Shown in pieces: positions 3,136 through 41,478 of a stretch of DNA of 45,876 nt (the stretch's first letter is position 1; every line of letters starts with the position of its first letter). The position numbers and the translations under genes were made by a program. The notes under the pieces are model-generated. The model had not been told where the DNA came from. It searched no databases and worked only from the letters and a program-made list of their open reading frames with translations. Source of the stretch: a virus; the IMG/VR virus record IMGVR_UViG_3300039016_000025, positions 1 through 45,876 of that record. One strand, given 5' to 3'.

Positions 3136-4346
3136 ACGAGGTTCACCGTGATATCGGACGCGCTCAACGTGGGGCGCTGGTCAATGCCGACGTCGACCTT
3201 GGTCAAAGTGGGCGTGCTGGTGCCAATCAGGATTGAAACGACGGCCACGTTGGCCGCAACGGCGGACACGGGGGCATAGTATCGGCTTGCAAAAATCGAC
3301 GCCCCGATGCGTTCCCGGGCGGTTCCGTCCGAACCGTTGAACCTGGCAATAATCGCGGCCTTGACCAAATCAACAATATTGGACGGCAACGAAGAGTCGT
3401 TGAGTATATTTACGGCGTACTTAATGGGCAGGTTCGCCGGCCGGTTGAATTTCACAGTGTAGGTCGGCAAGGGGAAATTGTAGCCAGCACCGTCGGTGAC
3501 GGTAACGGAAGTATTCCCGTTGTAATCGCAACCCAAATCCTTTTTGGTCCAAATGGCTTGCGCGATATCCGCGTCGGCGCCGCCAACGACCGCAACATAG
3601 ACCGAATGGGCGGCCATGGGGTAATTGGTCACGCCCTTGTTCACCGTGGTGCCGGCCGGGTTGTCGATAACGTAGCAATCAAGCACGTCGGCCAGGTTGA
3701 AGACTGCCGCATAAATGGCGCCGTTCGTGCCTTCGGCATTCAGGGCGACCGAATTCTTCCGGCGGTATTCAAAATCCGCCCGGCTTTCAACGTCCGACCC
3801 CATTGTGCCGTCGGCCGCGTTCGTGATTGCGTCCCAGCCCGGGACCGCTTGGTACACTTGGGTAAGCGTGCCGGCGGCGCAAGGAATCGGGCCGGTTTGG
3901 GTATTTTGGAATTCTGCAATTACCGTACCAGTTGACCCAATCGTGGCGTTACCCGCGCAAACGTAGGTATTCCCCGACGTGTCTTGCGCCAGGGTGCCGG
4001 CCGGAACAACGGTGCCGGAAAGGCCGGTAAGCGTGGCCTGCACCGTGGTCGGCGTGGCCGGCTTGCGTGTCAGGAAGTAAATGCGGGCAATGGCATCTTG
4101 GAAGCGGTCGGCGGAATATTGCGGGTCGACTTGATTCACGAATAATGCAAATTCGTTATTCTTGTCTCCGATAATCGCGGCCTGGCTGGAAGCAAGTTGG
4201 CCTTGCGGCGTTTCAAGCGCCGGATTGAGCCCGCCCCCAAAGGCGGCGTTAATGTCGTCTTGAACGCCCGCCAATACGGCAGTTTCCGCGGGAATGACAA
4301 GGCCAGCCGGCGTAAACTGGATTTTTGGAACGCTAGAAAGTGACAT
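3132..4346 (-). CDS. Baseplate J-like (gp47/JayE family) protein
   Basis: ORF 3132..4370. Preferred start is ATG 4346 (MSLSSVPKIQF), preceded by GGGAG about 9 nt upstream; the 4370 start is TTG. Long conserved baseplate J-like N-terminal half. Confidence 0.75.
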   Translation of the reverse strand: MSLSSVPKIQFTPAGLVIPAETAVLAGVQDDINAAFGGGLNPALETPQGQLASSQAAIIGDKNNEFALFVNQVDPQYSADRFQDAIARIYFLTRKPATPTTVQATLTGLSGTVVPAGTLAQDTSGNTYVCAGNATIGSTGTVIAEFQNTQTGPIPCAAGTLTQVYQAVPGWDAITNAADGTMGSDVESRADFEYRRKNSVALNAEGTNGAIYAAVFNLADVLDCYVIDNPAGTTVNKGVTNYPMAAHSVYVAVVGGADADIAQAIWTKKDLGCDYNGNTSVTVTDGAGYNFPLPTYTVKFNRPANLPIKYAVNILNDSSLPSNIVDLVKAAIIARFNGSDGTARERIGASIFASRYYAPVSAVAANVAVVSILIGTSTPTLTKVDVGIDQRPTLSASDITVNLV

Positions 4347-4692
4347 TGTTAGCCGCTCCCGTTTCGTCAATAAATTGGATTTGCCCCGTAATTTCGCGGG
4401 AGTCGAATGCCGAAATTATACATTGAGCGGACACGACGCCGGGAACTGTTAGCGCCGCTTTCTCAATGTAGCCCGTCATAAGTGACAGCGGCGGCAAGTG
4501 CCCTAGCACGTCTTCAAAGTACGGAATGCCCTTTTTCGTGGAGTACCACAGTTCCCCCAGGAACAGGCGCACGGCGCTTGCAACGTCTTGGGCCAAGGCG
4601 TAAGGGGGCGTCGCCATGGCGATATTGCCGGCGCTGTCTATGACCAAATCCCATTGCCCTTGGTCAAGCAAAAGCGTGTTGTATTGCGTCAT
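4333..4692 (-). CDS. Small baseplate wedge protein (function by position)
   Basis: 119-aa ORF between the spike-like and baseplate J-like genes, overlapping both. Confidence 0.45.
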   Translation of the reverse strand: MTQYNTLLLDQGQWDLVIDSAGNIAMATPPYALAQDVASAVRLFLGELWYSTKKGIPYFEDVLGHLPPLSLMTGYIEKAALTVPGVVSAQCIISAFDSREITGQIQFIDETGAANNVTF

Positions 4693-5450: not shown

Positions 5451-6300
5451 TAGCGTTACCCCTTACATTTGAAAACCAGGCGCCGCCCGGCTTTTCGGAT
5501 TCCAGCCGATGGCCGACCGAAGTTACAACCCATTCCCCGGCCGCTTGTTGCACGTCCGTTACCAGCTTGACGGAGCCCCCAAAGGTAATTGCCGGATTGA
5601 ATAGGGTTTGAAAATTGACGCCCACACCGTCAAAGGTTGGATAGCCAACCAAGCCGGACGCTGGCGAAATGAGCGGAATAATTACCTTGCGGGGCACGTT
5701 CGGGGGCGTGATTGCCAATATCTTGTCGTCAAGGTACAGGTCGCACCCGGCGGCCCGTGCAAGGTCTTTGGCCTGTTCCATGCCGGTATTGGGCAGATAC
5801 ACGTCGACCAGTTGCGTAGTAACGCCGTTGTTCTCGAAAGTGTAGCCCAGGTCGCGGGCAATCTGCCCCATGACCGTGGCAACATCGACGCGCCCCTTGA
5901 AGCTCCGGGGCGGTACAGCCTTCAAGGTATTGAAGAAGGCGGATTGCGCCTGAATGTGGAGGAAGACGTCGGGCATGCCTTGATAATCAGCCCAGGCGTT
6001 AACGATGTTGCCGGCGAATACCAGCGTTTCCGCGGCGCCGTCAATGGCGTAGACTTCCACGGTGTTGGGAATGAGCGTACCGGGCTTCCATTGCAGCGTC
6101 GTAACGCTGTTCATATCGGCTTGCGCGACGCCGTAAATTTTGGCGCGTAGGGTGCCCATCATCATGCCGCCGGCCTTGTCAATGTCCGCAATTGCGCGGA
6201 AGCCCTGCAGCGTAATGGTGTCATTATCGGACGACCCAAACTTCCCCGTTCCCAAGGTAATGACGAAGCGGAGCGCCTTTTTATTTTCAAATGAGGGCAT
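5425..6300 (-). CDS. Putative baseplate hub protein
   Basis: 291-aa ORF between the tape-measure-proximal genes and the spike. Assigned by synteny only. Confidence 0.4.
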   Translation of the reverse strand: MPSFENKKALRFVITLGTGKFGSSDNDTITLQGFRAIADIDKAGGMMMGTLRAKIYGVAQADMNSVTTLQWKPGTLIPNTVEVYAIDGAAETLVFAGNIVNAWADYQGMPDVFLHIQAQSAFFNTLKAVPPRSFKGRVDVATVMGQIARDLGYTFENNGVTTQLVDVYLPNTGMEQAKDLARAAGCDLYLDDKILAITPPNVPRKVIIPLISPASGLVGYPTFDGVGVNFQTLFNPAITFGGSVKLVTDVQQAAGEWVVTSVGHRLESEKPGGAWFSNVRGNANGLAVVGR

Positions 6301-7351: not shown

Positions 7352-9304
7352 TTAGGTCAACCCGTAATTTGCTTGAGAGGTAAAGAGGTAATCCAGGGAC
7401 TTGCCCATATCCTTGGCAATGCCGTTGGCGTCCGTGGCGGCCGTGTATACCTTGACCTCCCCAATGTGGGTTTCAACGCTCTTGGACGTGGCGCCAGGGG
7501 CCGCGGCGGCGTTTGCTTGGGCAACCTGCACCGCACCAGCCCCGACGGCCGCCTGAGAGGCGCCAGGCACGCCCCCGAGCATTGCAAGGGCCATTTGTCC
7601 CCGCTTGGCCGCTTCACCCTCCCGGTCAGCCGGGCGTTCGTAGTGCTTGGACACGATGGCCGCGGCTTCGTCCGCCCGCGTCGCACCTTTAAGCAAGTTT
7701 CCGGCTTTGCGTTCGTTACCTTGGGTCAATTCATATTGCATGAAGGCCATTTGCTCTTCAATTGACGACCCTTGAATCGGTTTGCCAAAGACCTTTTGGA
7801 AGACGGCTTGCCGGTCGGGGTGCCATTGGCCGATGCCATACGCCTTGCCGTTGTCGCCCACGGCGTCCGCCCTAAAGGCGCTTTCCCGCTTGATGTTGGC
7901 GGCCAAGCCTGCAGCCTGCTCCCGCGACCAGCCTTGGGCCTGAAAATAGGCCATTGCGGCTTGCTCTTCCTTGGCGCCGCCGGCCGGGCTCTTGCCGGTG
8001 GAATTGACAGTACCGGAGGGGGCGGCGGCCGGGCTCTTGCCGGTGGAATTGACAGTACCGGAGGGGGCGGCGGCCGGAGCCGGGGAACCGGGGGCGCCCG
8101 GGGGTGCTGGGGCTTCTTCGGCGCCATACTTCTTGCCGTTGCCGCTCAAGAATTCCCCGGCGGCGAACTTGGCCCGCTTCCAATCGCGTTCAAACACGGC
8201 GGACAGCACGTCGGCCGCGGCAATTGCACGGTACACCATGTCGCCCAACAAGTCCTTAAGCCATTTGATTGCCTGGCCGGCGGCCTTAAATCCGGGTTCC
8301 CATTTGCCCCAATCAATGAAGCTATCGCCCCCGCGTTTCCACGTTTGGTAATCTTGCCACAGGGCGGCGATTGCGGCGGCCAGTGCCAGCACGGCGACCA
8401 CAGTCAGGTTAATGGGAATCGTAGCCGCGGCGATGCCCGCCAGGCCGACGACAATGATGGTAAGGAACGTTTGCACGAATTCCTTATTTTCCCGAATCCA
8501 GGCGCCGAAGTCCGCGAAAATGGCAAACATTTTTTCCAGCGCCGGAGTAGCGGCCGACAGCAATTCGCGGCCGAACGCTTCAAAGCTTTGCCGGCTGGAA
8601 ACCATGGCGTTACGCAAGCGGCTGGCCTCTTCGGCTTGCTGCTTGGTTACGGCCCCGTACTCCTTTTGCCGGGCAATCATCAATTCAACTTCCGACCGCC
8701 CCTTAAGCAAAAGTTGCATGGTGCCTTGGTCAATACCCATCATGCGGCCCATGTTGTTGGCCGTGGTCCGGTCCATCTTACTAAAGCGGTCGGACAGGTC
8801 TAGCAACAGGTCATTGACGGGGCGGGCTTTGCCTTGCGTATCGGCCAGGCTCATGCCCAGCGCGGAGAAATACGGGATAAGGGAGGATTGCCCGGTAAGC
8901 TGCAATTCAGTTTGCGACTTACTGAGCATGTCCATAGTGCCTTGCAAGCCTTCCCCGGTCCCGCCGGCCAGTTCGGCGGCATTGGACCATGCGGAAATGC
9001 TATTGACACTTTGGTCGAGGTTTTGCGCGAAGCGGTCAAGGGCCGCGTTTGCTTCTATCTGGTTTTCAATGAACCGCTTTACGGCCATTGTCCCGCCGAT
9101 GATGGCAAGGAATTTGGCGGCGCTTTTGGCTACATTCTCAAAGCCGTCGGCGCCGTCCTTTCCGGACTTCTTGAGTTTCGACCCGGTCTTTTCCGCTTCG
9201 GCGCCGGTATCCTTAAGGCCCTTGTCGACCTTGGACTTCTTGGCCTCAAACTCCGAAGAGTCAAGGCCAAGTTTTACCAGTAAGCTGTCGATAATTGTAG
9301 CCAT
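7352..9304 (-). CDS. Tape measure protein with C-terminal tail-lysozyme-like domain
   Basis: 650 aa. Has a coiled-coil N-terminus and a hydrophobic block FLTIIVVGLAGIAAATIPINLTVVAVLALAAAIAALW. The C-terminal block YFQAQGWSREQAAGLAANIKRESAFRADAVGDNGKAYGIGQWHPDRQ resembles phage tail lysozyme domains. Confidence 0.8.
   Translation of the reverse strand: MATIIDSLLVKLGLDSSEFEAKKSKVDKGLKDTGAEAEKTGSKLKKSGKDGADGFENVAKSAAKFLAIIGGTMAVKRFIENQIEANAALDRFAQNLDQSVNSISAWSNAAELAGGTGEGLQGTMDMLSKSQTELQLTGQSSLIPYFSALGMSLADTQGKARPVNDLLLDLSDRFSKMDRTTANNMGRMMGIDQGTMQLLLKGRSEVELMIARQKEYGAVTKQQAEEASRLRNAMVSSRQSFEAFGRELLSAATPALEKMFAIFADFGAWIRENKEFVQTFLTIIVVGLAGIAAATIPINLTVVAVLALAAAIAALWQDYQTWKRGGDSFIDWGKWEPGFKAAGQAIKWLKDLLGDMVYRAIAAADVLSAVFERDWKRAKFAAGEFLSGNGKKYGAEEAPAPPGAPGSPAPAAAPSGTVNSTGKSPAAAPSGTVNSTGKSPAGGAKEEQAAMAYFQAQGWSREQAAGLAANIKRESAFRADAVGDNGKAYGIGQWHPDRQAVFQKVFGKPIQGSSIEEQMAFMQYELTQGNERKAGNLLKGATRADEAAAIVSKHYERPADREGEAAKRGQMALAMLGGVPGASQAAVGAGAVQVAQANAAAAPGATSKSVETHIGEVKVYTAATDANGIAKDMGKSLDYLFTSQANYGLT
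7982..8071. repeat. Perfect 45-bp tandem duplication inside the tape measure gene (APSGTVNSTGKSPAA x2)
   Basis: 7982-8026 and 8027-8071 are identical when read base by base, and in frame. Confidence 0.9.
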
Positions 9305-12877: not shown

Positions 12878-13117
12878 TTACTTTGCGTCCTTGACGGGGG
12901 CGGGCTCAACTTCGGCCGGCGCCGTGGCTTCAAGGTGCGCCCCGATAGCGGCGGCCAGGTTCGCCAGTTCGTCCCGCGGCATTTCGATAAACGACGCCGT
13001 TTGGGCGCCATTGCTACGCACGGCCACGGTAAGGCGGTCGTCATCTTCGCGGTTGACGGAAATATACGCCGGGTTTGCGTTGCCGGCCGGGGTGTAAGCA
13101 AAAATATTGGTTCTCAT
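12878..13117 (-). CDS. Hypothetical virion-module protein
   Basis: 79-aa ORF, ATGA-coupled to the upstream gene. Confidence 0.45.
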   Translation of the reverse strand: MRTNIFAYTPAGNANPAYISVNREDDDRLTVAVRSNGAQTASFIEMPRDELANLAAAIGAHLEATAPAEVEPAPVKDAK

Positions 13118-13584
13118 GATTTGTTGACCTCATAGGCTACTGAATTGAGCATGTGCGAAGTATCAATAAGGGGCTTCGCAAACCCCTTGGCTTCTATGGT
13201 ACTCGGGGCCAGCGGGGGCGACTGAAGCTCGTTGATACTTTTTTGCAAGGCGCCTTTGATATCTTCGCCCATGAGGGCCAGCACACGGTCGCCGTCGTAA
13301 TCGGTTGCCTTTGCCAGCTTCACCATTTTACCCGGCCATGTGGGCGACTCCGCGGCAATCATTTGGCGGAAGAAAGGGCGGGGCATTTGAAAATAATTGC
13401 CCTCTTCGCTTTGAACGCCCTTGCCAAACTCATTCCAGAAGGCCACGGCGGCGACTGGCGTTCCATCGGGATACGTTGCGCCTTCCATGAAGCCGACCGC
13501 AACTTCCCCGCCGCCCATCTTGCGGGCGATATCTTCAAGGGCCTTCATGACCCCGTCGGCGCCGCTCAATACCTTGTCGGGCAT
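13114..13584 (-). CDS. HK97 gp10-like head-tail connector protein
   Basis: 156 aa. C-terminal PLAPSTIEAKGFAKPLIDTSHMLNSV matches the gp10-family pattern. Confidence 0.6.
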   Translation of the reverse strand: MPDKVLSGADGVMKALEDIARKMGGGEVAVGFMEGATYPDGTPVAAVAFWNEFGKGVQSEEGNYFQMPRPFFRQMIAAESPTWPGKMVKLAKATDYDGDRVLALMGEDIKGALQKSINELQSPPLAPSTIEAKGFAKPLIDTSHMLNSVAYEVNKS

Positions 13585-21401: not shown

Positions 21402-21430
21402 TTGACGTAGATAAATTATTTATCTAATAT
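21402..21430 (+). promoter_or_regulatory. Early promoter cassette copy 1 (TTGACG-17-TAATAT, spacer palindrome TAGATAAATTATTTATCTA)
   Basis: Hexamers and 17-nt spacer read directly. The same spacer occurs at five other sites. Confidence 0.7.
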
Positions 21431-24849: not shown

Positions 24850-25137
24850 TCAGCCTATCCAATAGGTAATGCGCTCTTTGCCGGCCGATTCGTAGCGGGT
24901 GACGTTGATCGGTACACGGGCGCCGCGTTCCTCAAGTTTCGGGATGATGTAGTCGGCCACAATGCGGGCAGCTTCGGCCCGGCTCAAGCGCACATAGCCG
25001 CCAGCGCAACCAATGAACGCTTTGTCGTCTTCCCCTTCAATTGGGGCGTCGTTGCGGACGTGCAGGCAAAAGGAAGTGCCGGCCTTGGCGTTCTTTACGA
25101 ACTTAACGGCATCGGCGGTCTTGAATAGTTGGCTCAT
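24850..25137 (-). CDS. Hypothetical 95-aa early protein
   Basis: ORF with its own early promoter cassette and the CA-rich leader ending in ccGGAG. Confidence 0.6.
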   Translation of the reverse strand: MSQLFKTADAVKFVKNAKAGTSFCLHVRNDAPIEGEDDKAFIGCAGGYVRLSRAEAARIVADYIIPKLEERGARVPINVTRYESAGKERITYWIG

Positions 25138-25172: not shown

Positions 25173-25201
25173 ATATTAGATAAATAATTTACCTATGTCA
25201 A
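25173..25201 (-). promoter_or_regulatory. Early promoter cassette copy 2 (TTGACA-17-TAATAT)
   Basis: Minus strand reads ttgaca taggtaaattatttatc taatat. Confidence 0.7.
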
Positions 25202-25205
25202 CAAG

Positions 25206-25228
25206 AAAAAGCCCGCACTCGGCGGGCC
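25206..25228 (-). terminator. Intrinsic terminator after the pentapeptide-repeat gene
   Basis: Minus strand reads gcccgc cgagt gcgggc followed by ttttt. Confidence 0.7.
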
Positions 25229-25248
25229 TATAAATTGCGCTTGGTTAT

Positions 25249-26106
25249 TTAGGATTCCGCCGGGGCTTCCTCTTCGACCACGGTAGCCGGCCAGACGTTG
25301 TAATGGGCTTCAACCAGCACCAGCGCGGCCCGGTATTCAACGGCATGCACGTTGTCGCCGTGTTCCCCTTGCAGCTTGTCCCGGAACTCTTCCACGGTGC
25401 CAAAGAAGCAACCGGCACGAAGGTAAACGCCCTTTTCCGTGAGGAATGCCGTCAAAATGTCTTGCCGAGAACCGATCGGGCCGACCGCGAAATAGGGACG
25501 GTCGCCCGTCAGTTTACCCGCGTCGCGAAGGTCCGCGCCGCAAAGGTTCGCGCCGCAAAGGTCCGCGCCGCAAAGGTTCGCGCCGTAAAGGTCCGCGCCG
25601 CAAAGGTCCGCGCCGCAAAGGTCCGCGCTGCGAAGGTTCGCGCTGCGAAGGTTCGCGCTGCGAAGGTTCGCGCCGTAAAGGTTCGCGCTGCGAAGGTCCG
25701 CGCCGTAAAGGTTCGCGCTGCGAAGGTCCGCGCCGTAAAGGTTCGCGCCGTAAAGGTTCGCGCCGCAAAGGTTCGCGCCGTAAAGGTTCGCGCTGCGAAG
25801 GTCCGCGCCGTAAAGGTTCGCGCCGCAAAGGTCCGCGCCGTAAAGGTTCGCGCCGTAAAGGTTCGCGCTGCGAAGGTCCGCGCCGTAAAGGTTCGCGTCG
25901 CGAAGGTCCGCGCTGCGAAGGTCCGCGCCGTAAAGGTCCGCGCTGCGAAGGTCCGCGCCGTAAAGGTTCGCGCTGCGAAGGTCCGCGCCGTAAAGGTTCG
26001 CTTTTGCGTTTATCGCGGCGGCCAACGTAATTGCGTCGCTGTTGTTTTCGCATTCGTGGCTAAAAAGAATTTCCAGCGAAAAGCGGGATTTGATTTCAAT
26101 TTTCAT
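25249..26106 (-). CDS. Pentapeptide-repeat protein (32 consecutive A[ND]L[YRC][GSD] units plus a non-repeat C-terminal domain of about 90 aa)
   Basis: 285-aa ORF, GGAGAGG RBS, own promoter and terminator. Repeats read directly from the translation. Confidence 0.85.
   Translation of the reverse strand: MKIEIKSRFSLEILFSHECENNSDAITLAAAINAKANLYGADLRSANLYGADLRSADLYGADLRSADLRDANLYGADLRSANLYGANLYGADLCGANLYGADLRSANLYGANLCGANLYGANLYGADLRSANLYGADLRSANLYGANLRSANLRSANLRSADLCGADLCGADLYGANLCGADLCGANLCGADLRDAGKLTGDRPYFAVGPIGSRQDILTAFLTEKGVYLRAGCFFGTVEEFRDKLQGEHGDNVHAVEYRAALVLVEAHYNVWPATVVEEEAPAES
25522..26001. repeat. About 480 bp of contiguous 15-bp-periodic tandem repeat (the coding repeat of the pentapeptide protein)
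   Basis: Units such as gcgccgtaaaggttc and gcgctgcgaaggtcc are iterated without spacers. Several alternative frames are open across it. Confidence 0.9.
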
Positions 26107-26148
26107 GGTGTGTACCTCTCCAGGTGAATTAAGGATGCTACGGGCCTA

Positions 26149-26177
26149 ACTATAGATAAATAATTTACCGTCGGCAA
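26149..26177 (-). promoter_or_regulatory. Early promoter cassette copy 3 (TTGCCG-17-TATAGT)
   Basis: Minus strand reads ttgccg acggtaaattatttatc tatagt. Confidence 0.6.
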
Positions 26178-26180
26178 CGG

Positions 26181-26306
26181 TTATTTCTCGACTTCAAACT
26201 TAATGCCCCAGCGGAAAACCGCGGCATATAGGGCGCCGGCCGCAAACAAAAGCGGCTTTGTCCACCAGCGGGATTTAACGCTTACGGTGATTGATAGCTC
26301 CGTCAT
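26181..26306 (-). CDS. Possible 41-aa hydrophobic peptide, ATGA-coupled to the ParB-like gene
   Basis: Hand translation gives MTELSITVSVKSRWWTKPLLFAAGALYAAVFRWGIKFEVEK. Below the track size cut-off. Confidence 0.35.
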   Translation of the reverse strand: MTELSITVSVKSRWWTKPLLFAAGALYAAVFRWGIKFEVEK

Positions 26307-27142
26307 TTCTTCATGCTCTCCAACAGGTCGACAAGCGCCTTTTGGAACTTGGTGGACAATTGCTTGTAGCCCGGGTCGTCCATGAGCGTGGTCAACATTT
26401 GGTGCATGGGTTCCGCCTGTTTGCGTAGCACCTTCTTAAATTCGGCTTGCGGCAAGTGCTTGGCGGTAACGCGGCCGGTCCCCGACTTGACCATGGCAGC
26501 CAGTAACACGTCGCCCGCCTTGTCCCCGTGCTTCTTGATACTGTCAATTGCTAATGTGGCCGATATGACCGACTCCATTACCATGCGGCGAACCGGGAGC
26601 GGCGCCGATGCCAGGGACAACAGGGCGTCGACGTATTGTGCCCCGGAGTATCCCAAGCGGCGGGCAATCTCTTTGGACTCCCAGCCGAAGGCGGCCAGGC
26701 GCTTGCACACGACGGCTTGTTCGTAGGTGGTCAGGGGTTCCCCTTCGTTGCCCGTGACAAGGTCAACGGTAAGGTCTTCCATGCTGGTGCCGCGGGGCTT
26801 GATTACCACGGGCACGGCGGCCACTTCCACACCTTCCGAAAGCGCCAGCAATACCGCTTCGTGCCGGCGGTGCCCCCCGGTGACGTAGATAACTTCCGTG
26901 CCCTCTTCCAGCGCCACGAAGCCGGTCAACGGCTTGTCCCTGTAATAGCCGTTTGCCTTGATGCTGTCAGCAATCCAGCGCACGCGGCCGGCATACGCTT
27001 CATTTTTGACGCGGGCGTTAAAGCCCTCAAGGATGCGGAGCCGGGTCGGTTCCACTTGCCACAGGTCCGCACTTACGGCGCCGACGGCTTTCATGGCGGC
27101 TTTCATGTTGCCGGGGGTCAGTTCGCGGGTAAAGTCTTCCAT
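26303..27142 (-). CDS. ParB/KorB-like protein (ParB N-terminal domain plus HTH)
   Basis: 279 aa. Has the GGHRRH arginine-finger motif and an HTH-like WESKEIARRLGYSGAQYV. Confidence 0.7.
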   Translation of the reverse strand: MEDFTRELTPGNMKAAMKAVGAVSADLWQVEPTRLRILEGFNARVKNEAYAGRVRWIADSIKANGYYRDKPLTGFVALEEGTEVIYVTGGHRRHEAVLLALSEGVEVAAVPVVIKPRGTSMEDLTVDLVTGNEGEPLTTYEQAVVCKRLAAFGWESKEIARRLGYSGAQYVDALLSLASAPLPVRRMVMESVISATLAIDSIKKHGDKAGDVLLAAMVKSGTGRVTAKHLPQAEFKKVLRKQAEPMHQMLTTLMDDPGYKQLSTKFQKALVDLLESMKK

Positions 27143-27435: not shown

Positions 27436-27464
27436 AGTATAGATAAATTATTTATCTATGTCAA
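27436..27464 (-). promoter_or_regulatory. Early promoter cassette copy 4 (TTGACA-17-TATACT, perfect 19-bp palindrome in the spacer)
   Basis: Plus strand shows tatagataaattatttatctatgtcaa. Confidence 0.7.
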
Positions 27465-32952: not shown

Positions 32953-34092
32953 TTAAGCCGACTCCTTCATGCTGGTGCGTGCAGCCTCCAATCGTGCATT
33001 GGCGATGGCGGTATATTGCGGGTCCAATTCAAAGCCAATGAATTGGAAACCCTCGAGAATCGCCGCCTTGCCAGTGCTTCCCGACCCAGCGAACGGGTCG
33101 ACGATCAGCCCCCCGGGCGGCGTGACCAGGCGGCACAGGTAGCGCATAAGCTCCGTCGGCTTAACGGTCGGGTGCGGGTTTTTTGCATCGGCGTTCATGT
33201 TGCGTGGGGAGCCGTCGCCATTTTTCGACAAGCCAGTGCCGGCCGCAAAATTAGCCATGACCGCGTCGAACGCTTCCAAGCCTTCATTGCGGTCGCGCTT
33301 GCTAGCCTTGGCGCAATAGAAGAAGCGTGCCGCGGAGCCCGTGCCGCAATCGACCTTGGTGCGTTCGCCACCCAAGTATTCAGCGGAGCCCGTGCCGACC
33401 GCCCCGTCCCCATAGCCGCTAATTTTGACGTTCGGCACGCTGCCCCCCGACCCGGCGCTGTCAGGGAACATTGCCACAACCTCGTCGCTTCCGTCGTGGA
33501 TCAAGTTCGCAGGGTAGCGACCGGCAGGCGATCCCGGCTTATTCTCATAGTCGGGCAATTCGTAACTGCTCCCATTTCCAACGATGCCCCCGCCGTGCCG
33601 CGTGCGACCTTCGGGGGCATCGTTGGATAACACACGGCACGCGTCGATATTGAGCAACGTCGCCACCTTCGCCGGCTTGCGGGCCATGGTTATGGGCTCC
33701 AAGGCTGGCTTTAAGCTGCTCCGGTGCTTGGGGTATCCGCTGCCGTAGACCCAAGCGATCATGTCGCGGATTTCAAAGCCGGAAATTTGCAAACCTAGCG
33801 CCATTAGGTGCTGTGTCCGTGTACCGGCGAACGCCAGGAGATACCCGCCGGGCTTGAGTACCCGCCAGCATTCGCGCCACATCGACGGCTGGGGCACAAA
33901 AGCGTCCCATTCTTTACCCATAAAGCCGCTCTTGCTTTTGTGGACATAGTCTTTACCGTTCATCCATGCTTGTAGCATCGCCAGCGCGTCGGGCTCTTTG
34001 CCTAGCCCGTACATGGGGTCGCAAACTATCGCGTCGACGCTGTTGTCCGGGAGCATCGCAAGGCCGTGTCGGCAATCCAAGTTCAAAATCAT
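32953..34092 (-). CDS. Orphan DNA methyltransferase, beta-class N6A/N4C family (motif IV DPMY)
   Basis: 379 aa. Has DPMYGLG early and VDPFAGSGSTG late. No adjacent nuclease. Confidence 0.8.
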   Translation of the reverse strand: MILNLDCRHGLAMLPDNSVDAIVCDPMYGLGKEPDALAMLQAWMNGKDYVHKSKSGFMGKEWDAFVPQPSMWRECWRVLKPGGYLLAFAGTRTQHLMALGLQISGFEIRDMIAWVYGSGYPKHRSSLKPALEPITMARKPAKVATLLNIDACRVLSNDAPEGRTRHGGGIVGNGSSYELPDYENKPGSPAGRYPANLIHDGSDEVVAMFPDSAGSGGSVPNVKISGYGDGAVGTGSAEYLGGERTKVDCGTGSAARFFYCAKASKRDRNEGLEAFDAVMANFAAGTGLSKNGDGSPRNMNADAKNPHPTVKPTELMRYLCRLVTPPGGLIVDPFAGSGSTGKAAILEGFQFIGFELDPQYTAIANARLEAARTSMKESA

Positions 34093-37696: not shown

Positions 37697-37725
37697 TTGA
37701 CATAGGTAAATTATTTATCTAAAAT
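37697..37725 (+). promoter_or_regulatory. Early promoter cassette copy 5 (TTGACA-17-TAAAAT)
   Basis: ttgaca taggtaaattatttatc taaaat. Confidence 0.75.
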
Positions 37726-38519: not shown

Positions 38520-39440
38520 ATGCTGATATTCAAAAATAACAATGTGGCAAGCGTGATGATTGGCGATTGCTTAACGTCGCTTGCCACACTGCCTGAACGC
38601 TCGGTTAATTGCTGCGTTACTTCGCCGCCCTATTATGGCTTGCGCGACTACGGTGTCGACGGACAAATCGGCCTTGAAGACTCCCCCGACGCCTACGTCG
38701 CTAGATTGGTCGAAGTGTTCCGCGAAGTCCGTCGGGTACTGACTGACGACGGCACGCTATGGCTAAATATCGGTGACAGTTACGCCAGCAACCCGGCCAG
38801 CGGTGGCAATCGGTCTAGCAAAATGACAGGTGGCGAACATAAGCGCACGCCAACCGAGCACAAATATCGGCGACCCGACGGCCTCAAACCCAAAGACCTT
38901 ATAGGGATTCCCTGGCTATTGGCGTTTGCCTTACGTGCGGACGGGTGGTATTTGCGCCAGGATATTATTTGGCACAAGCCAAACCCGATGCCGGAATCAG
39001 TGCGCGACCGATGCACGAAGGCGCATGAATATTTATTTTTACTTTCAAAATCCGAACGGTATTTTTTCGATAGCGATGCGATGCAGGAACCGTCCAAAGG
39101 TCGCACCGATATGGGCCGAATGAATGGAATTGGTCGGATAAATGAAGGTGGATGGTGTACGGAAGAGCCAAAAGAAAAATTAACCCGCAACCGCCGAAGC
39201 GTATGGACAGTAACGCCAAAACCTTACAAGGGAGCACATTTCGCCGTCTACCCGCCCGAACTTATTGAACCTTGCGTATTGGCCGGATGCCCGGAGGGGG
39301 GCACTGTTTTAGACCCTTTCGGCGGCTCCGGCACGACGGGCGGCGTGGCCTTGAAGCATGGTAGAAACGCCGTTCTTTGCGAACTTAGCCCGGATTACGT
39401 GGCACTCATGCCCGCACGAATTGAGTCGATAGCATGCTGA
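38520..39440 (+). CDS. Orphan DNA methyltransferase, beta-class (motif IV SPPY, suggesting N4-cytosine or N6-adenine)
   Basis: 306 aa. Has TSPPYYGLRDY early and LDPFGGSGTTG late. GC is markedly lower than in the neighbours. Confidence 0.8.
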   Translation: MLIFKNNNVASVMIGDCLTSLATLPERSVNCCVTSPPYYGLRDYGVDGQIGLEDSPDAYVARLVEVFREVRRVLTDDGTLWLNIGDSYASNPASGGNRSSKMTGGEHKRTPTEHKYRRPDGLKPKDLIGIPWLLAFALRADGWYLRQDIIWHKPNPMPESVRDRCTKAHEYLFLLSKSERYFFDSDAMQEPSKGRTDMGRMNGIGRINEGGWCTEEPKEKLTRNRRSVWTVTPKPYKGAHFAVYPPELIEPCVLAGCPEGGTVLDPFGGSGTTGGVALKHGRNAVLCELSPDYVALMPARIESIAC

Positions 39441-41458
39441 TTGCCCCACCCCCGCCGCCGGCCACAGCGGCCCGCCCCGTGGCCTTCTACGATACGGAAT
39501 GCTTCCCCAACTATTGGTTGCTCAAGTTCCGCCCCCGCGGCGGTCAAGCGTACAGCTTCCGGCTACGGGCGGGGCAAGCGTTCGACCTTGTTACCGCGTC
39601 CCGCATTCGGCTGTTGTTCGACGCCTATTGCTCCGTCAGTTTCAACGGCAACTATTACGACGTCCCCATGATTACCGCGGCGCTGTCCGGCTACACCGCG
39701 GAGCAATTGAAATGGCTTAACGACCGCATCATCGTTGAAAAGGTGAAGCCTTGGGAACTTGGCTTGCCGGAGTGGCGCCCCGCGGACCATATCGACGTCA
39801 TGGAAGTCGCCCCGGGCGCCGGTTCCCAAAAGCAGTACGCCGGCCGGATTCACTGTAAGACAATGCGCGACCTCCCCTATGACCCGGGCCACTACGTCAC
39901 GGAAGCGGAGATTGTGGAAGTCGACACGTATTGCGAAAACGACCTTGCCGTGCTGGAAGCCCTCTTTGACGCCCTGCAGCCGATGATTGAACAGCGGGAA
40001 GCCTTGGGCAATCGCTACGGCTTGGACCTCCGGAGCAAGTCCGATGCCCAAGTCGCGGAGGCTGTACTTAAGCGCCGTTGTGAACAGGCCCTTGGGCAAC
40101 GCATTTACAAGCCGGAAATTGATTGGAATTTAGCGTTTCGGTACAAGGTGCCGCCGTTCATTTCCTACACGCTCCCGCAACTGCAAAGGGCCTTGGAACT
40201 GGTCCGCGAATCCGTCTTTAGGCTAGGGCCGTCCGGCGCCGTGGAAATGCCGCCACAGCTTGAAGGGCTGGAAATTACCGTCAACCGTTCGACCTATAAA
40301 ATGGGCATTGGGGGCTTGCACAGCCAGGAGAAAAAACTAGTCGCCGTGAGTGGTCCGAACAACCAAATACGGATGCCGGACGTCGCCAGCTATTACCCAA
40401 ATCTAATTTTGAATTCCGGCGAGTGGCCGCCCGCCCTTGGGCCGACCTTCCTCAAAGAGTACGAATCCATTAAGGATGAACGCCTAGCCGCCAAAGCCTT
40501 GCAAGGGAAATTAAAGAAGGCCGGCGACACAAAGAGCCATGAATATGCCGAAGCCAGGGTCGGCAACGAAGGTGGCAAGATTATGATTAACGGGACTTTT
40601 GGAAAGACCGGGAGCCCGTACAGCGTTCTTTTTGCGCCGACCATGTTGATTCAAACAACAGTAACCGGGCAATTGTCCCTTTTGATGCTGATTGAATGGC
40701 ACGAACTTTACGGAATCCCGGTTATTTCGGCCAATACCGACGGCATAGTCATTGACTGCCCGCGGGATAAGCTGCAGGTCAGTGAATACCTTATTGCTGA
40801 ATGGCAACGCCGCACGGGCTTGGAAATGGAAACGGACGATTACGTCGCCCTCTATGCCCGGGACGTGAACAACTATTTTGCAATCAAGACCCCGGACGAC
40901 GTGAAGCGCAAAGGGGAATATGCCAAAGCCGGTTTGGCTGAAAAGAAAAACCCCGACGTCGAGATTTGCGCGGACGCCGTGGCGGAATTCTTGGCAAAGG
41001 GTGTGCCCGTGGAATACACCATTGCCGCGTGCCGTGATATTCGCAAGTTCGTTACCATCCAGAAGGTCAACGGGGGCGGCGTCAAAATGTGGGGCGAAGG
41101 GCCGCGCAAGGGTGCCAGGGTCATGGATATGGTCGGCACGTTGCAGGCCAACGGATGGACCAAGGAGGGCCGCAAGTGGCGCCGCGGGGACATGCTGGCA
41201 CCAGCGGCCACAGCATACGCCGCGTGCTTCCAGCCCCAAACGCCGGAATACTTGGGAAAGGTGGTGCGCTGGTACTACAGCACGCAAGCGCCTGGCCCCA
41301 TCGTCTACGCCAGTAACGGCAACACGGTAAGCCTTTCCTATGGTGCCCGGCCGTGCATGACGCTACCGGACGAATTCCCGGACGATATCGACTACGCTTG
41401 GTACGTCGGCAAGGCCGAAGCGATGTTGCGGGACGTTGGATATTATCAGTTGACATAG
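39434..41458 (+). CDS. Family B DNA polymerase with 3-5 exonuclease domain
   Basis: 674 aa. Exo I is FYDTECF, motif A DVASYYPN, motif B KIMINGTFGK, motif C SANTDGIV. Confidence 0.8.
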   Translation: MLIAPPPPPATAARPVAFYDTECFPNYWLLKFRPRGGQAYSFRLRAGQAFDLVTASRIRLLFDAYCSVSFNGNYYDVPMITAALSGYTAEQLKWLNDRIIVEKVKPWELGLPEWRPADHIDVMEVAPGAGSQKQYAGRIHCKTMRDLPYDPGHYVTEAEIVEVDTYCENDLAVLEALFDALQPMIEQREALGNRYGLDLRSKSDAQVAEAVLKRRCEQALGQRIYKPEIDWNLAFRYKVPPFISYTLPQLQRALELVRESVFRLGPSGAVEMPPQLEGLEITVNRSTYKMGIGGLHSQEKKLVAVSGPNNQIRMPDVASYYPNLILNSGEWPPALGPTFLKEYESIKDERLAAKALQGKLKKAGDTKSHEYAEARVGNEGGKIMINGTFGKTGSPYSVLFAPTMLIQTTVTGQLSLLMLIEWHELYGIPVISANTDGIVIDCPRDKLQVSEYLIAEWQRRTGLEMETDDYVALYARDVNNYFAIKTPDDVKRKGEYAKAGLAEKKNPDVEICADAVAEFLAKGVPVEYTIAACRDIRKFVTIQKVNGGGVKMWGEGPRKGARVMDMVGTLQANGWTKEGRKWRRGDMLAPAATAYAACFQPQTPEYLGKVVRWYYSTQAPGPIVYASNGNTVSLSYGARPCMTLPDEFPDDIDYAWYVGKAEAMLRDVGYYQLT

Positions 41459-41478
41459 ATAAATTATTTAGCTACAGT
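41450..41478 (+). promoter_or_regulatory. Early promoter cassette copy 6 (TTGACA-17-TACAGT). The -35 lies in the last polymerase codons
   Basis: ttgaca tagataaattatttagc tacagt. Confidence 0.65.

What the first reader, a model, noticed from the sequence alone, without database searches (positions are those of the whole stretch)
25249..26106. Stand-alone early gene for a very regular pentapeptide-repeat protein: candidate DNA mimic
Seen: 32 uninterrupted pentapeptides A[ND]L[YRC][GSD] (160 aa). They follow a 35-aa N-terminal cap and precede a non-repeat C-terminal domain of about 90 aa (GDRPYFAVGPIGSRQDILTAFLTEKGVYLRAGCFFGTVEEFRDKL...). The gene is a self-contained unit with its own early promoter cassette (26149-26177), a GGAGAGG RBS and an intrinsic terminator (25206-25228). 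The 15-bp units are so similar at the DNA level that several alternative frames stay open.

Established: pentapeptide-repeat proteins such as Qnr, MfpA, AlbG and McbG fold as right-handed quadrilateral beta-helices that mimic B-DNA and act on DNA gyrase. Unrelated phage DNA mimics such as Ocr and ArdA block restriction systems.

Inference: this could be a DNA-mimic host-takeover or anti-defence factor targeting gyrase/topoisomerase, restriction enzymes or another DNA-binding defence protein. The C-terminal domain would supply specificity or dimerisation. The near-identical units also make copy number prone to slippage.
Basis: partly seen in the sequence, partly recalled or inferred. Interest (0 to 1): 0.75.

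Follow-up and report, generated by a model that had tools for sequence, protein, structure and literature searches.

The report
Hypervariable pentapeptide-repeat phage accessory protein
A phage gene encodes a rod-shaped repeat protein whose repeat block differs in length and order between otherwise identical phages, while a small, undescribed end domain stays constant; its function is unknown, and DNA mimicry is not supported as the family's conserved function.

Summary
Window 25249-26106 (-) encodes 285 aa: a 35-aa cap, 32 uninterrupted A[ND]L[YRC][GSD] units, and a 90-aa C-terminal domain, with its own sigma-70-like promoter, RBS and terminator.

AlphaFold predicts an 8-coil quadrilateral beta-helix that superposes on MfpA. 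However, the protein fails the Qnr and MfpA family cut-offs and its array is only weakly acidic (net -5 over 160 aa).

The cap and C-domain recur in relatives carrying 1 to about 38 units, so DNA mimicry of a fixed length is not the conserved property.

The conserved part is the C-domain, a four-strand, two-helix fold with no Pfam family, PDB sequence match or PDB fold match. It occurs in 3,363 protein clusters. It is also fused to a different solenoid type, the YdcK/hexapeptide repeats, in other phages (hhalign E 2e-27).

Three public contigs are 99-100% identical to the window in the flanks. Two carry complete arrays, of 30 and 20 units in a different unit order; the third breaks inside its array. 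All differences fall at five nucleotide positions that encode outward-facing residues.

Best reading: an accessory protein, probably early, with a conserved effector head on a recombination-scrambled solenoid stalk. Its target is unknown.

The parts
26149..26177 (-). Sigma-70-type promoter cassette: -35 TTGCCG, a 17-nt spacer containing GGTAAATTATTTATC, and -10 TATAGT
   Evidence: Promoter scan. The motif is found at six sites in the window against 0.03 expected matches. It is conserved upstream of the orthologue in L001, L002, L004, L005 and L006.
26115..26121 (-). Ribosome-binding site GGAGAGG, 8 nt upstream of the ATG
   Evidence: Read from the sequence. CCTGGAGAGGTACAC is identical in five relatives.
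25249..26106 (-). Complete coding sequence, 285 aa plus stop
   Evidence: ORF list. PF00805 E 1.6e-70. phrog_7713 E 2e-60 and phrog_31265 E 3e-38, both of unknown function.
26002..26106 (-). N-terminal cap, aa 1-35 (MKIEIKSRFSLEILFSHECENNSDAITLAAAINAK): a beta-hairpin plus one helix
   Evidence: AlphaFold strands 2-7 and 13-18 and helix 24-33, pLDDT above 90. The cap is conserved in 134 of the 171 proteins returned by the two homologue searches.
25522..26001 (-). Array of 32 fifteen-bp units GCG-RAC-CTT-YRC-RRC, aa 36-195, forming an 8-coil quadrilateral beta-helix. This is the hypervariable part.
   Evidence: Tandem Repeats Finder. Unit table: seven DNA unit types equal seven peptide types, and Ala is always GCG and Leu always CTT. 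Fold. The array differs from L015 and L014 although the flanks are 99-100% identical.
25252..25521 (-). Conserved C-terminal domain, aa 196-285: four-strand meander plus two helices, with motifs GPIGSR, T, G, GCFFG, F, H and EY
   Evidence: AlphaFold model of the domain alone, pLDDT 91.7. No Pfam family, no PDB sequence match, and best PDB Foldseek E 0.9. 3,363 clusters at E <= 0.001. Homologous to the C-termini of YdcK-type phage solenoid proteins, hhalign probability 99.8%, E 2e-27.
25209..25229 (-). Intrinsic terminator hairpin (8 pairs, 6 G-C) followed by TTTTTCTTGTT
   Evidence: Terminator scan. Conserved downstream of the orthologue in L001, L002 and L005.

Best explanation
The gene is a self-contained, host-RNA-polymerase-transcribed accessory unit. 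It encodes a member of a very large, uncharacterised family of phage and prophage proteins built as cap, beta-solenoid stalk, then a conserved 80-aa head of four strands and two helices.

Shown:
- The fold, the family and the architecture.
- The head is the conserved module and is shared between pentapeptide-type and YdcK/hexapeptide-type solenoids.
- The solenoid is a protein-coding minisatellite. Its unit number and unit order differ between genomes that are otherwise 99-100% identical.
- Variation is confined to five nucleotide positions, which encode the three outward-facing residues of each unit.
- Each array uses a single codon for each inward-facing residue, which is the signature of concerted evolution.

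Inferred:
- The head does the work. It binds, or possibly modifies, a conserved host or rival-element protein, probably early in infection, as a host-takeover or anti-defence function.
- The solenoid is a rigid, sequence-tolerant stalk, or simply bulk. Its length and surface are reshuffled by out-of-register recombination or slippage among near-identical 15-bp units.
- The solenoid is not a calibrated mimic of a DNA segment.
For: Architecture and fold.

The head is conserved and undescribed:
- No Pfam family, no PDB sequence match, and no PDB fold match (best E 0.9).
- 3,363 clusters at 50% identity; 135 of 147 top representatives carry pentapeptide repeats.
- Invariant residues across distant members: G212, S213, T223, G226, G232, F234, H249, Y258, with C233 nearly invariant.

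The head occurs on another solenoid class:
- BFVD structural hits to proteins annotated as hexapeptide, YdcK or bactofilin-like.
- tblastn hits to phiAGATE, Motura, Mannheimia 587AP2, Pd_22F, phiRM10 and Thanatos-2.
- Hexapeptide and YdcK HMM hits in phiAGATE and Mannheimia 587AP2, below the curated cut-offs apart from Pfam Hexapep in phiAGATE; no Pfam family for the Motura protein.
- hhalign probability 99.8%, E 2e-27.

A derivative with the head only sits directly after the primase gene in four contigs from three samples, with the domain intact.

Stalk length is unconstrained:
- 1 to about 38 units with the same cap and head.
- No preference by remainder modulo 4: 83, 72, 90 and 78 proteins.

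Hypervariability:
- L015 matches the window at 978/978, 179/179 and 273/273 flank bases, yet its array shows 33 mismatches and 60 gap columns. All mismatches fall at unit positions 4, 10, 11, 13 and 14 (Fisher p 5e-22).
- L014 has 20 units in a different order.
- Many contigs break inside the array.

Concerted evolution: Leu is CTT in every unit of most arrays but CTG in all 32 units of L017 and L019. Arrays essentially lack synonymous variants (one array, L018, has a single extra DNA unit type).

Setting:
- The promoter, RBS and terminator unit is conserved while the neighbouring genes vary.
- Homologues lie in early, immunity or recombination regions in g341c, B025, Mannheimia 587AP2, phiRM10 and a Variovorax prophage.
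Against: - No partner, activity or phenotype is known, and no paper on the family was found.
- The head could be only a C-terminal cap or a dimerisation module, as the C-terminal helices are in Qnr and MfpA. The solenoid would then be the active part.
- This particular allele has 8 coils, the same as an MfpA monomer, and the whole protein has a net charge of -12.
- Short alleles and the head-only derivative could be decaying genes.
- In Shewanella phage Thanatos-2 the homologue lies between the baseplate genes gp6 and gp7.
- Early timing is inferred from promoter type only.
- Array differences come from short-read metagenome assemblies. Chimeric paths through mixed populations cannot be excluded, although the longest exact internal repeats (50-95 nt) are shorter than the usual largest k-mers.
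Confidence: 0.4

Rival explanations
1. DNA mimic. The solenoid, probably dimerised through the C-terminal domain, imitates B-DNA and titrates gyrase or topoisomerase, RecBCD, or a restriction or defence nuclease.
For: - Quadrilateral beta-helix of 8 coils that superposes on MfpA (TM 0.72 normalised to the target, rmsd 2.9 A). QnrB1 and AlbG are also retrieved.
- The protein has a net charge of -12.
- The gene lies in accessory regions that in lambdoid phages hold ral or gam-type functions: after N in g341c, and beside RecT/Exo or Gam/SSAP genes in Mannheimia 587AP2, B025 and phiRM10.
Against: - It fails the Qnr and MfpA curated cut-offs by a wide margin.
- It has no loops and no dimerising helix.
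- The array has a net charge of only -5 over 160 aa. The family median is -0.16 per unit, and 29% of arrays are neutral or basic.
- Alleles with 1-5 units, about one coil or less, keep an intact cap and head.
- Faces are scrambled: the super-period is 5 units, not 4, and the unit order differs between identical phages.
- The same head sits on hexapeptide solenoids.
Confidence: 0.15
2. The C-terminal domain is a small enzyme that uses the conserved Cys-His (with Ser, Thr and Tyr) to modify a host target, and the solenoid serves as a substrate-docking rod.
For: C233 (nearly invariant), H249, S213, T223 and Y258 are conserved across distant pentapeptide-type members. Cys and His are largely kept in the YdcK-type homologues: Cys in all seven, His in six of seven.
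Against: - The domain has only about 80 residues.
- No fold or sequence similarity to any known enzyme was found.
- The conserved glycines sit at turns, which suggests structural roles.
- The g341c-type variant lacks the equivalent His spacing.
Confidence: 0.12
3. The apparent array hypervariability is an assembly artefact, and the real phage carries one stable array.
For: - All alternative alleles come from short-read metagenome assemblies.
- Many contigs end inside the array.
- The L015 allele recurs in a second record, L058, which shows that a given array can be reproduced but not that the two records are independent.
Against: - Arrays shorter than the k-mer or read length (1-8 units) cannot arise by collapse, and they differ among relatives.
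- Longest exact internal repeats are 50-95 nt, so the arrays are resolvable at k of 99 or more.
- Differences are strictly in frame and limited to the five polymorphic positions.
- Lineage-wide CTT or CTG fixation shows real homogenisation.
Confidence: 0.15
4. Virion-associated or structural protein, for example a baseplate or fibre accessory, or an injected protein.
For: Beta-solenoids are common in tail proteins. The Thanatos-2 homologue lies between baseplate genes gp6 and gp7. There is a weak phrog_28766 tail-fibre hit, E 0.006.
Against: - The gene has its own host-type promoter and terminator, on the replication side between the primase/ParB-like genes and the terminase.
- Most homologues sit in early operons.
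- The protein is small, with no trimerisation or attachment domain.
Confidence: 0.05
5. The 15-bp array acts at the DNA level (iterons, origin, packaging or recombination site) and the ORF is incidental.
For: The array lies near the replication genes. Codons are identical across all units.
Against: - Unit number ranges from 1 to about 38 and is always in frame.
- One lineage has switched every Leu codon to CTG.
- Distant homologues keep the protein but not the DNA sequence.
- Inward-facing residues are fixed while outward-facing ones vary, as expected for a folded solenoid.
Confidence: 0.03

Closest known systems
Topoisomerase-interacting pentapeptide-repeat proteins (MfpA, QnrB1, AlbG, EfsQnr, McbG)
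   Same: Right-handed quadrilateral beta-helix of A(D/N)LXX units. This allele has 8 coils, like an MfpA monomer, and the structures superpose (2bm5_B TM 0.72 normalised to the target, rmsd 2.9 A).
   Different: - Scores far below the family cut-offs.
- No Qnr loops and no C-terminal dimerising helix; it has a four-strand, two-helix domain instead.
- Only weakly acidic.
- Coil number is not fixed.
- Phage-borne, with its own promoter and terminator.
Consensus-like pentapeptide solenoids (Nostoc Np275/Np276, HetL, Alr5209, synthetic 'Beta1' solenoids)
   Same: Very regular repeats. These are the best Foldseek hits (E 4e-13 to 2e-11, 40-53% identity), and the protein passes the Alr5209 NCBIfam cut-off on repeats alone (132 bits against 125).
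   Different: Those proteins lack this cap and C-terminal domain. Their functions are unrelated or unknown, so the similarity is due to the repeats only.
Phage YdcK/hexapeptide-type solenoid proteins carrying the same C-terminal domain (Bacillus phage phiAGATE gp031, Ruminococcus phage phiRM10 gp34, Mannheimia phage 587AP2 gp43, Achromobacter phage Motura gp241, Shewanella phage Thanatos-2 TH2_184)
   Same: Homologous C-terminal domain (hhalign probability 99.8%, E 2e-27). phiRM10 and Mannheimia 587AP2 also have near-identical tandem units. Most lie in early or recombination regions.
   Different: The solenoid is of a different type (six-residue units; hexapeptide and YdcK HMM hits), with a different and larger N-terminal domain. 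All are uncharacterised.
Acidic DNA-mimic anti-restriction proteins (T7 Ocr, ArdA)
   Same: Phage or mobile-element accessory proteins, expressed early in the case of Ocr. An elongated shape is plausible.
   Different: Unrelated folds. From my own knowledge, not tested here, those proteins carry dense negative charge laid out like a phosphate backbone. This array has a net charge of -5 over 160 aa with 12 Arg.
PHROG families 7713, 31265, 20532, 7964 and 37032
   Same: The protein matches these directly (E 2e-60 to 4e-8). They are the database groupings of this family and of its C-terminal domain.
   Different: All are labelled 'unknown function', so they add no mechanism.

Membership tests
Pentapeptide-repeat proteins (Pfam PF00805) | Tandem A(D/N)LXX units scoring above the Pfam gathering threshold | tested here: met
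   232.5 bits against a cut-off of 20.2, E 1.6e-70, seven stretches.
Pentapeptide-repeat proteins (Pfam PF00805) | Right-handed quadrilateral beta-helix with four units per coil | tested here: met
   The AlphaFold model has one short strand every five residues from residue 36 to 195, pLDDT above 90 for the first 13 blocks of ten residues. Foldseek finds solved pentapeptide proteins at E down to 4e-13. This is a prediction, not an experiment.
Qnr family | Score at or above the NCBIfam NF033086 cut-off | tested here: not met
   53.9 bits against 240. All Qnr subfamily models score 30-49 bits against cut-offs of 425-500.
Qnr family | Loops A and B interrupting the helix | tested here: not met
   The 32 units are uninterrupted, with no insertion.
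Qnr / MfpA / AlbG (topoisomerase-interacting) | Protects or inhibits DNA gyrase | not testable with these tools
   Needs supercoiling assays, quinolone MIC measurements or binding assays.
MfpA | Score at or above the NCBIfam NF000349 cut-off | tested here: not met
   65.2 bits against 360.
MfpA / Qnr | C-terminal helix that mediates tail-to-tail dimerisation | tested here: not met
   The C-terminus is a 90-aa four-strand, two-helix domain. Whether that domain dimerises was not testable here.
Acidic DNA mimics (Ocr / ArdA type) | Dense, DNA-like negative surface charge | tested here: not met
   The array has 17 Asp and 12 Arg, net -5 over 160 aa. The family median is -0.16 per unit and 29% of arrays are at or above zero. 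The three-dimensional charge pattern was not computed.
Unnamed phage family 'cap - pentapeptide array - four-strand, two-helix head' (PHROGs 7713/31265; C-domain PHROGs 20532/7964/37032) | N-terminal cap motif (K-I-E-I-K-x-R...L-F, then a helix) directly followed by the array | tested here: met
   Identical or near-identical caps in 134 of the 171 proteins returned by the two homologue searches.
Unnamed phage family 'cap - pentapeptide array - four-strand, two-helix head' (PHROGs 7713/31265; C-domain PHROGs 20532/7964/37032) | C-terminal domain with GPIGSR, T, G, GCFxG, F, H and EY | tested here: met
   All motifs are present. The profile finds 3,363 clusters. PHROG hits at E 1e-10, 4e-8 and 2.5e-16.
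Diversity-generating retroelement target | A template repeat elsewhere, plus a reverse transcriptase and adenine-specific changes | tested here: not met
   No second copy of the unit exists outside the array. No reverse transcriptase appears among the ORFs scanned. The changes are A/G and C/T alternatives among a few fixed unit types.
Known anti-phage defence proteins (PADLOC-DB) | Match to any PADLOC model | tested here: not met
   No hit at E <= 1 for the protein or for its C-domain.

The most novel reading that the evidence does not exclude
The four-strand, two-helix head defines a new, widespread phage effector domain that is mounted on interchangeable beta-solenoid stalks, either pentapeptide or hexapeptide. 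The stalk is a deliberately unstable coding minisatellite: recombination among 15-bp units continually changes its length and outward-facing residues. This would work as a contingency locus, letting an early phage protein escape recognition by a host immune sensor or retune its reach to a variable host target.
Probability: 0.18. Interest if true: 0.8.

Novelty: new variant of a known kind. Interest (0 to 1): 0.6.

Why it matters
Pentapeptide-repeat proteins in phages are usually annotated by analogy with Qnr or MfpA, as quinolone-resistance or gyrase-inhibiting proteins. This locus shows that a very large phage family (thousands of clusters) is something else.

Its constant part is an undescribed 80-residue domain. 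Its solenoid is exchangeable between repeat classes, and it varies in length and unit order between otherwise identical genomes.

If the variability is confirmed with long reads, it would be a clear case of a protein-coding minisatellite evolving orders of magnitude faster than its flanks in a phage accessory gene. That is the signature expected of a molecule in direct conflict with the host.

The finding also gives a concrete and cheap target for anti-defence or host-takeover screens, because natural 2-, 20-, 30- and 32-unit alleles and a head-only allele already exist. It is also a caution against calling phage pentapeptide proteins resistance genes.

Tried and rejected
1. Searching homologues with only the 94-aa C-terminal part, and again with its profile, returned only proteins of 165 aa or fewer. 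I first took this to mean that relatives have no more than 10 units and that the window is exceptional. The full-length query and the IMG/VR loci showed alleles of up to 315 aa and about 38 units, so the cap was a property of the search. The profile search therefore added nothing about other architectures.

2. Megablast of the region and of 25 kb of the window against GenBank phages found no relative.

3. The C-domain has no Pfam family, NCBIfam family or PDB sequence match, and no PDB fold match. The weak PDB Foldseek hits (enolase fragments, PUR repeats, leader protease; E 0.9 or worse) were rejected as noise.

4. PADLOC gave no hit.

5. Eight literature searches found no functional study of this family. 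The only mentions are annotation-level analogies to Qnr or gyrase inhibitors.

6. The first genome-collection scan, with a single sequence, confirmed nothing, and the 24-sequence alignment was too diverse to seed a scan. A 7-sequence alignment worked.

7. A DNA-level constraint on the unit, suggested by identical codons across lineages, was rejected. The L017/L019 lineage uses CTG in all 32 units, so concerted evolution explains the pattern.

8. Diversity-generating-retroelement mutagenesis was rejected: there is no template copy and no reverse transcriptase was found, and the variants are discrete.

9. A preference for whole coils (unit number a multiple of 4) was tested and not found.

10. 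The NCBIfam hit to 'Cys-every-fifth RiPP peptide CefA' (35.7 bits against a cut-off of 30) was rejected as a compositional match to the ADLCG/ANLCG run.
Full report
**Observation**

The ORF at 25249..26106 on the minus strand encodes 285 aa. It has three parts:
- Residues 1-35 form a non-repeat cap.
- Residues 36-195 are exactly 32 uninterrupted pentapeptides of seven types: ANLYG x11, ADLRS x7, ADLCG x4, ANLCG x3, ANLRS x3, ADLYG x2, ADLRD x2.
- Residues 196-285 are non-repeat.

Tandem Repeats Finder gives a 15-bp period with 32.2 copies at 25519-26001 and a 75-bp super-period. This is the only large tandem array in the window. Pfam PF00805 matches at E 1.6e-70. Three other reading frames stay open across the array, a trivial consequence of a stop-free unit.

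- A sigma-70-like promoter at 26177-26149.
- GGAGAGG 8 nt before the ATG.
- An 8-pair hairpin plus T-run at 25229-25209.

The promoter, leader and RBS are conserved upstream of the orthologue in five related contigs, and the terminator in three of them. 'Early' remains an inference. The cassette is one of six copies of a near-consensus host-type promoter in the window.

**Setting**

The window is a tailed-phage genome. On the minus strand the order is:
- DNA methyltransferase, helicase, DUF4406 protein
- NrS1-like primase-polymerase with a DUF5906 helicase domain
- a small ORF, a ParB-like gene, a 41-aa ORF
- this gene, then small ORFs
- small and large terminase, then structural genes.

No GenBank phage is close at the DNA level. 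Metagenomic contigs of 42-46 kb are syntenic. In these the gene always sits between the primase and the terminase, but its neighbours differ; for example, the ParB-like gene is absent from L004-L006. That is typical of an accessory region.

**Structure**

With a 32-sequence alignment, AlphaFold gives pLDDT 84.7. The model shows:
- a beta-hairpin plus helix cap
- one short strand every five residues through 36-195, which is 8 coils
- a C-terminal domain of four strands and two helices.

Confidence falls to 42-79 over residues 150-200, where the alignment is gappy.

Foldseek against the PDB finds synthetic consensus pentapeptide solenoids, Np275/276, HetL, MfpA (2bm5_B, TM 0.72 normalised to the target, rmsd 2.9 A over 160 columns), QnrB1 and AlbG.

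**Is it a Qnr/MfpA-type DNA mimic?**

Membership fails:
- Qnr scores 53.9 bits against a cut-off of 240. MfpA scores 65.2 against 360.
- There are no loops and no C-terminal dimerising helix.

The array carries 17 Asp and 12 Arg, net -5 over 160 aa. Across 323 family members the median is -0.16 charge per unit, and 29% of arrays are neutral or basic.

More importantly, the same cap and C-domain occur with very different unit numbers. The two protein searches that returned lists found 1 to at least 26 units. IMG/VR loci reach 32 units (L017, L019) and about 38 (L018, 315 aa). Alleles of 1-8 units are shorter than a read or the largest k-mer, so they cannot be collapse artefacts.

Unit number shows no preference for whole coils: counts by remainder modulo 4 are 83, 72, 90 and 78. 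The super-period is five units, not four, so the four faces of the helix have no fixed composition.

A rod of defined length and surface is therefore not what the family conserves. DNA mimicry is not excluded for long alleles, but it is not the best-supported reading.

**The conserved part**

The C-domain has:
- no Pfam or NCBIfam family
- no PDB sequence match
- no PDB fold match when modelled alone at pLDDT 91.7; the best Foldseek E-value is 0.9.

A profile of 24 diverse C-domains finds 3,363 clusters (50% identity representatives) at E <= 0.001, and 1,554 at E <= 1e-10. The domain is almost always C-terminal, and 135 of the 147 top representatives carry pentapeptide repeats.

Invariant residues are G212, S213, T223, G226, G232, F234, H249 and Y258, with C233 nearly invariant.

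Against predicted viral structures, the domain matches the C-termini of phage pentapeptide proteins. It also matches proteins annotated as hexapeptide transferase-like, YdcK, bactofilin-like or 'beta solenoid'. I followed this up:
- tblastn with the domain alone hits phiAGATE, Bobb, Bp8p, Motura, Pd_22F, phiRM10, phiKSUM, Thanatos and Mannheimia 587AP2.
- phiAGATE gp031 and Mannheimia gp43 give hexapeptide and YdcK solenoid HMM hits, below the curated cut-offs except Pfam Hexapep in phiAGATE. The Motura protein matches no Pfam family.
- The sequences show six-residue repeats, which are near-identical tandem units in phiRM10 gp34 and Mannheimia gp43.
- Profile-profile comparison of the two sets of C-domains gives probability 99.8%, E 2e-27.

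Listeria B025 gp51 also has the domain (probability 94%). The P22-like g341c/ST64T 'Orf-232' type and locus L030 have a possibly related variant (probability 59%).

One relative lineage has lost the promoter, cap and most of the array. It keeps an intact C-domain directly after the primase gene, in four contigs from three samples.

The picture is a conserved head on interchangeable solenoid stalks.

**Hypervariable array**

Within this array the seven DNA unit types correspond one-to-one to the seven peptide types. Ala is always GCG and Leu always CTT. All variation sits at unit positions 4, 10, 11, 13 and 14, which encode the three outward-facing residues.

The same holds in relatives, with one exception: L017 and L019 use CTG in all 32 units. 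This is classic concerted evolution, and it argues against a DNA-level function for the unit.

Three IMG/VR contigs are the same phage as the window:
- L015 is identical over 978 bases upstream, 179 bases of UTR plus cap, and 273 bases of C-domain, and 99.2% identical over 1,426 bases downstream.
- L014 is 99.3-100% identical in its flanks.
- L016 is 99.9-100% identical over the C-domain and downstream; its contig starts inside the array.

Yet the arrays differ in both number and order. Each letter below stands for one unit type:
- window, 32 units: YrYryrdYrYYcYrYCYYrYrYRRRccyCcCd
- L015, 30 units: cCgCrYrYGSRCyRrRcyCYrYgrrYrrCd
- L014, 20 units: RRrRYyRrrYRYyrrRyRR plus a final ANLRD
- L016 and P0083 end in a different last unit.

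The best alignment of the window and L015 arrays has 33 mismatches and 60 gap columns, against 0 mismatches in 1,430 adjacent flank bases (Fisher p 5e-22). Every mismatch falls at one of the five polymorphic positions.

Unit types are combinatorial (N/D x Y/R/C/H/G x G/S/D/C). This is what out-of-register recombination or slippage between near-identical units, with short conversion tracts, would produce.

Many contigs begin or end inside the array, including two of about 43 kb and one of about 45 kb. That fits within-sample heterogeneity.

Caveat: all alternative alleles come from short-read assemblies, and L058 may not be independent of L015. The longest exact internal repeats are 50-95 nt, so the arrays are resolvable at large k if the population is clonal. 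Chimeric paths through mixed populations cannot be excluded without long reads.

**Context elsewhere**

Homologues lie in these positions:
- just after N in the PL operon of a P22-like phage
- upstream of Gam-like and annealing-protein genes in Listeria B025 and Ruminococcus phiRM10
- after RecT and exonuclease in Mannheimia 587AP2
- between the immunity region and RecT in a Variovorax prophage
- among hypothetical genes of unknown function in phiAGATE, and between ligase and polynucleotide kinase in Motura.

The exception is Shewanella phage Thanatos-2, where the gene lies between baseplate genes gp6 and gp7.

Prophage copies occur in Comamonas, Variovorax, Azoarcus, Saccharibacter, Cruoricaptor and several metagenome-assembled genomes. 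The closest copy, 66% identical in the C-domain, is in a Comamonas genome.

**Mechanism**

What is shown is the fold, the architecture, the family, the conservation pattern and the evolutionary dynamics of the array. What is inferred is function.

I commit to the following, with confidence about 0.4. The head is the working part of a host-directed accessory protein, probably expressed early. It binds, or less likely modifies, a conserved host or rival-element component. The solenoid is a rigid, sequence-tolerant stalk or bulk whose length and surface are free to be reshuffled.

The rivals are:
- a DNA mimic (about 0.15)
- an enzymatic head (about 0.12, a variant of the main reading)
- assembly artefact, for the hypervariability claim only (about 0.15)
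- a structural protein (about 0.05)
- a DNA-level element (about 0.03).

**Novelty and verdict**

No paper on this family was found. Databases label it 'hypothetical' or 'pentapeptide repeat protein', and PHROGs marks it 'unknown function'.

The pentapeptide fold is known. New here are:
- the head domain, and its sharing between two solenoid classes
- the evidence that the array is a fast-evolving coding minisatellite.

I rate it a new variant of a known kind, with interest 0.6.

Noticed in passing
window 21408-21426, 25177-25195, 26153-26169, 27440-27458, 37703-37721, 41456-41474: Six copies of a near-consensus promoter: TTGACA, a spacer containing the partly palindromic TAGRTAAATTATTTATCTA, then a -10 of the TAnnnT type. 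Eleven strand-matches were found against 0.03 expected. The palindrome in the spacer looks like an operator for a phage regulator. Several copies share a leader, CATCAACTCAACAACCGGAG, but the pentapeptide gene has a different leader.
   Followed up: partly
window 25173-25201 (-): Directly after the terminator of the pentapeptide gene lies the next promoter cassette (TTGACA, 17 nt, TAATAT), which drives a 95-aa ORF (24850-25137) with no family match. The terminator-promoter junction is conserved in relatives L001, L002 and L005.
   Followed up: partly
window 26181-26306 (-): A 41-aa hydrophobic ORF (MTELSITVSVKSRWWTKPLLFAAGALYAAVFRWGIKFEVEK) ends just upstream of the promoter. Its 3' coding end is conserved in relatives L004 and L005, and an equivalent 41-aa gene is called in L004, although the ParB-like gene next to it is absent there.
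   Followed up: no
window 26303-27142 (-): The ParB-like gene (phrog_1033, E 6e-53; no Pfam hit) is present here, and a 284-aa gene with no family hit occupies the same position in L001. It is missing from L004, L005 and L006, where the pentapeptide gene follows the primase closely. The region is an accessory-gene hotspot.
   Followed up: partly
window 25522-25620 (protein residues 161-192): The run of ADLCG/ANLCG units places a Cys at every fifth residue, giving 7 probably surface-exposed Cys in all. It passes the NCBIfam cut-off for 'Cys-every-fifth RiPP peptide CefA' (35.7 bits against 30). I judged this a compositional coincidence. The same Cys-bearing units occur in allele L015 but not in L014.
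   Followed up: partly
L051/L052/L053 (contigs from ERZ650244, ERZ650240, SRR6231138): A deletion derivative of the gene. The promoter, cap and most of the array are gone, three remnant units have no in-frame ATG, and an intact C-domain ORF (called from a TTG start) begins about 75 nt after the primase stop. It was seen in four contigs from three samples.
   Followed up: partly
L004, L006, L024 (proteins P0074, P0085, P0130): In some relatives the C-domain continues into a different tail (…ERGEFEMIYGDRLAALFTEQTGFDTHL). In L004 and L006 the conserved terminator and next promoter are also absent downstream, so the 3' end of the unit has been remodelled.
   Followed up: no
L030 (IMGVR_UViG_3300025121_000080): This locus has the same type of cap and a pentapeptide array but a different C-terminal domain (…IKIGCEFHSTQEWIDFDDEKIAKMD…). 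That domain resembles the one in Salmonella phage g341c gp38 and in an unannotated ORF of Vibrio phage CP-T1. Heads as well as stalks appear to be exchanged.
   Followed up: partly
L056: Shewanella phage Thanatos-2, TH2_184: A 312-aa irregular solenoid protein carrying the same C-domain lies between the baseplate wedge genes gp6 and gp7 of a T4-like phage. This is the only structural-module context seen.
   Followed up: no
L012: Vibrio phage CP-T1, locus 3942-4422 (record about 12,910-13,390): An unannotated pentapeptide-repeat ORF lies in a gap of the RefSeq annotation, between gp15 and gp16.
   Followed up: no
window 7981-8077: A perfect 45-bp tandem repeat (2.2 copies) lies inside the 650-aa ORF 7352-9304 (-), which was not characterised. 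It is the only other notable tandem repeat in the window.
   Followed up: no
window 32953-34092 (-) and 38520-39440 (+): The phage carries two DNA methyltransferase genes (phrog_67; Pfam N6_N4_Mtase, E 9e-51). From general knowledge, such enzymes can protect phage DNA from restriction.
   Followed up: no
L033: Variovorax sp. N23 prophage, locus about 5700-5810: The pentapeptide array of the prophage homologue contains a run of N in the public genome collection copy (the collection masks a few stretches), so its unit number cannot be read.
   Followed up: no
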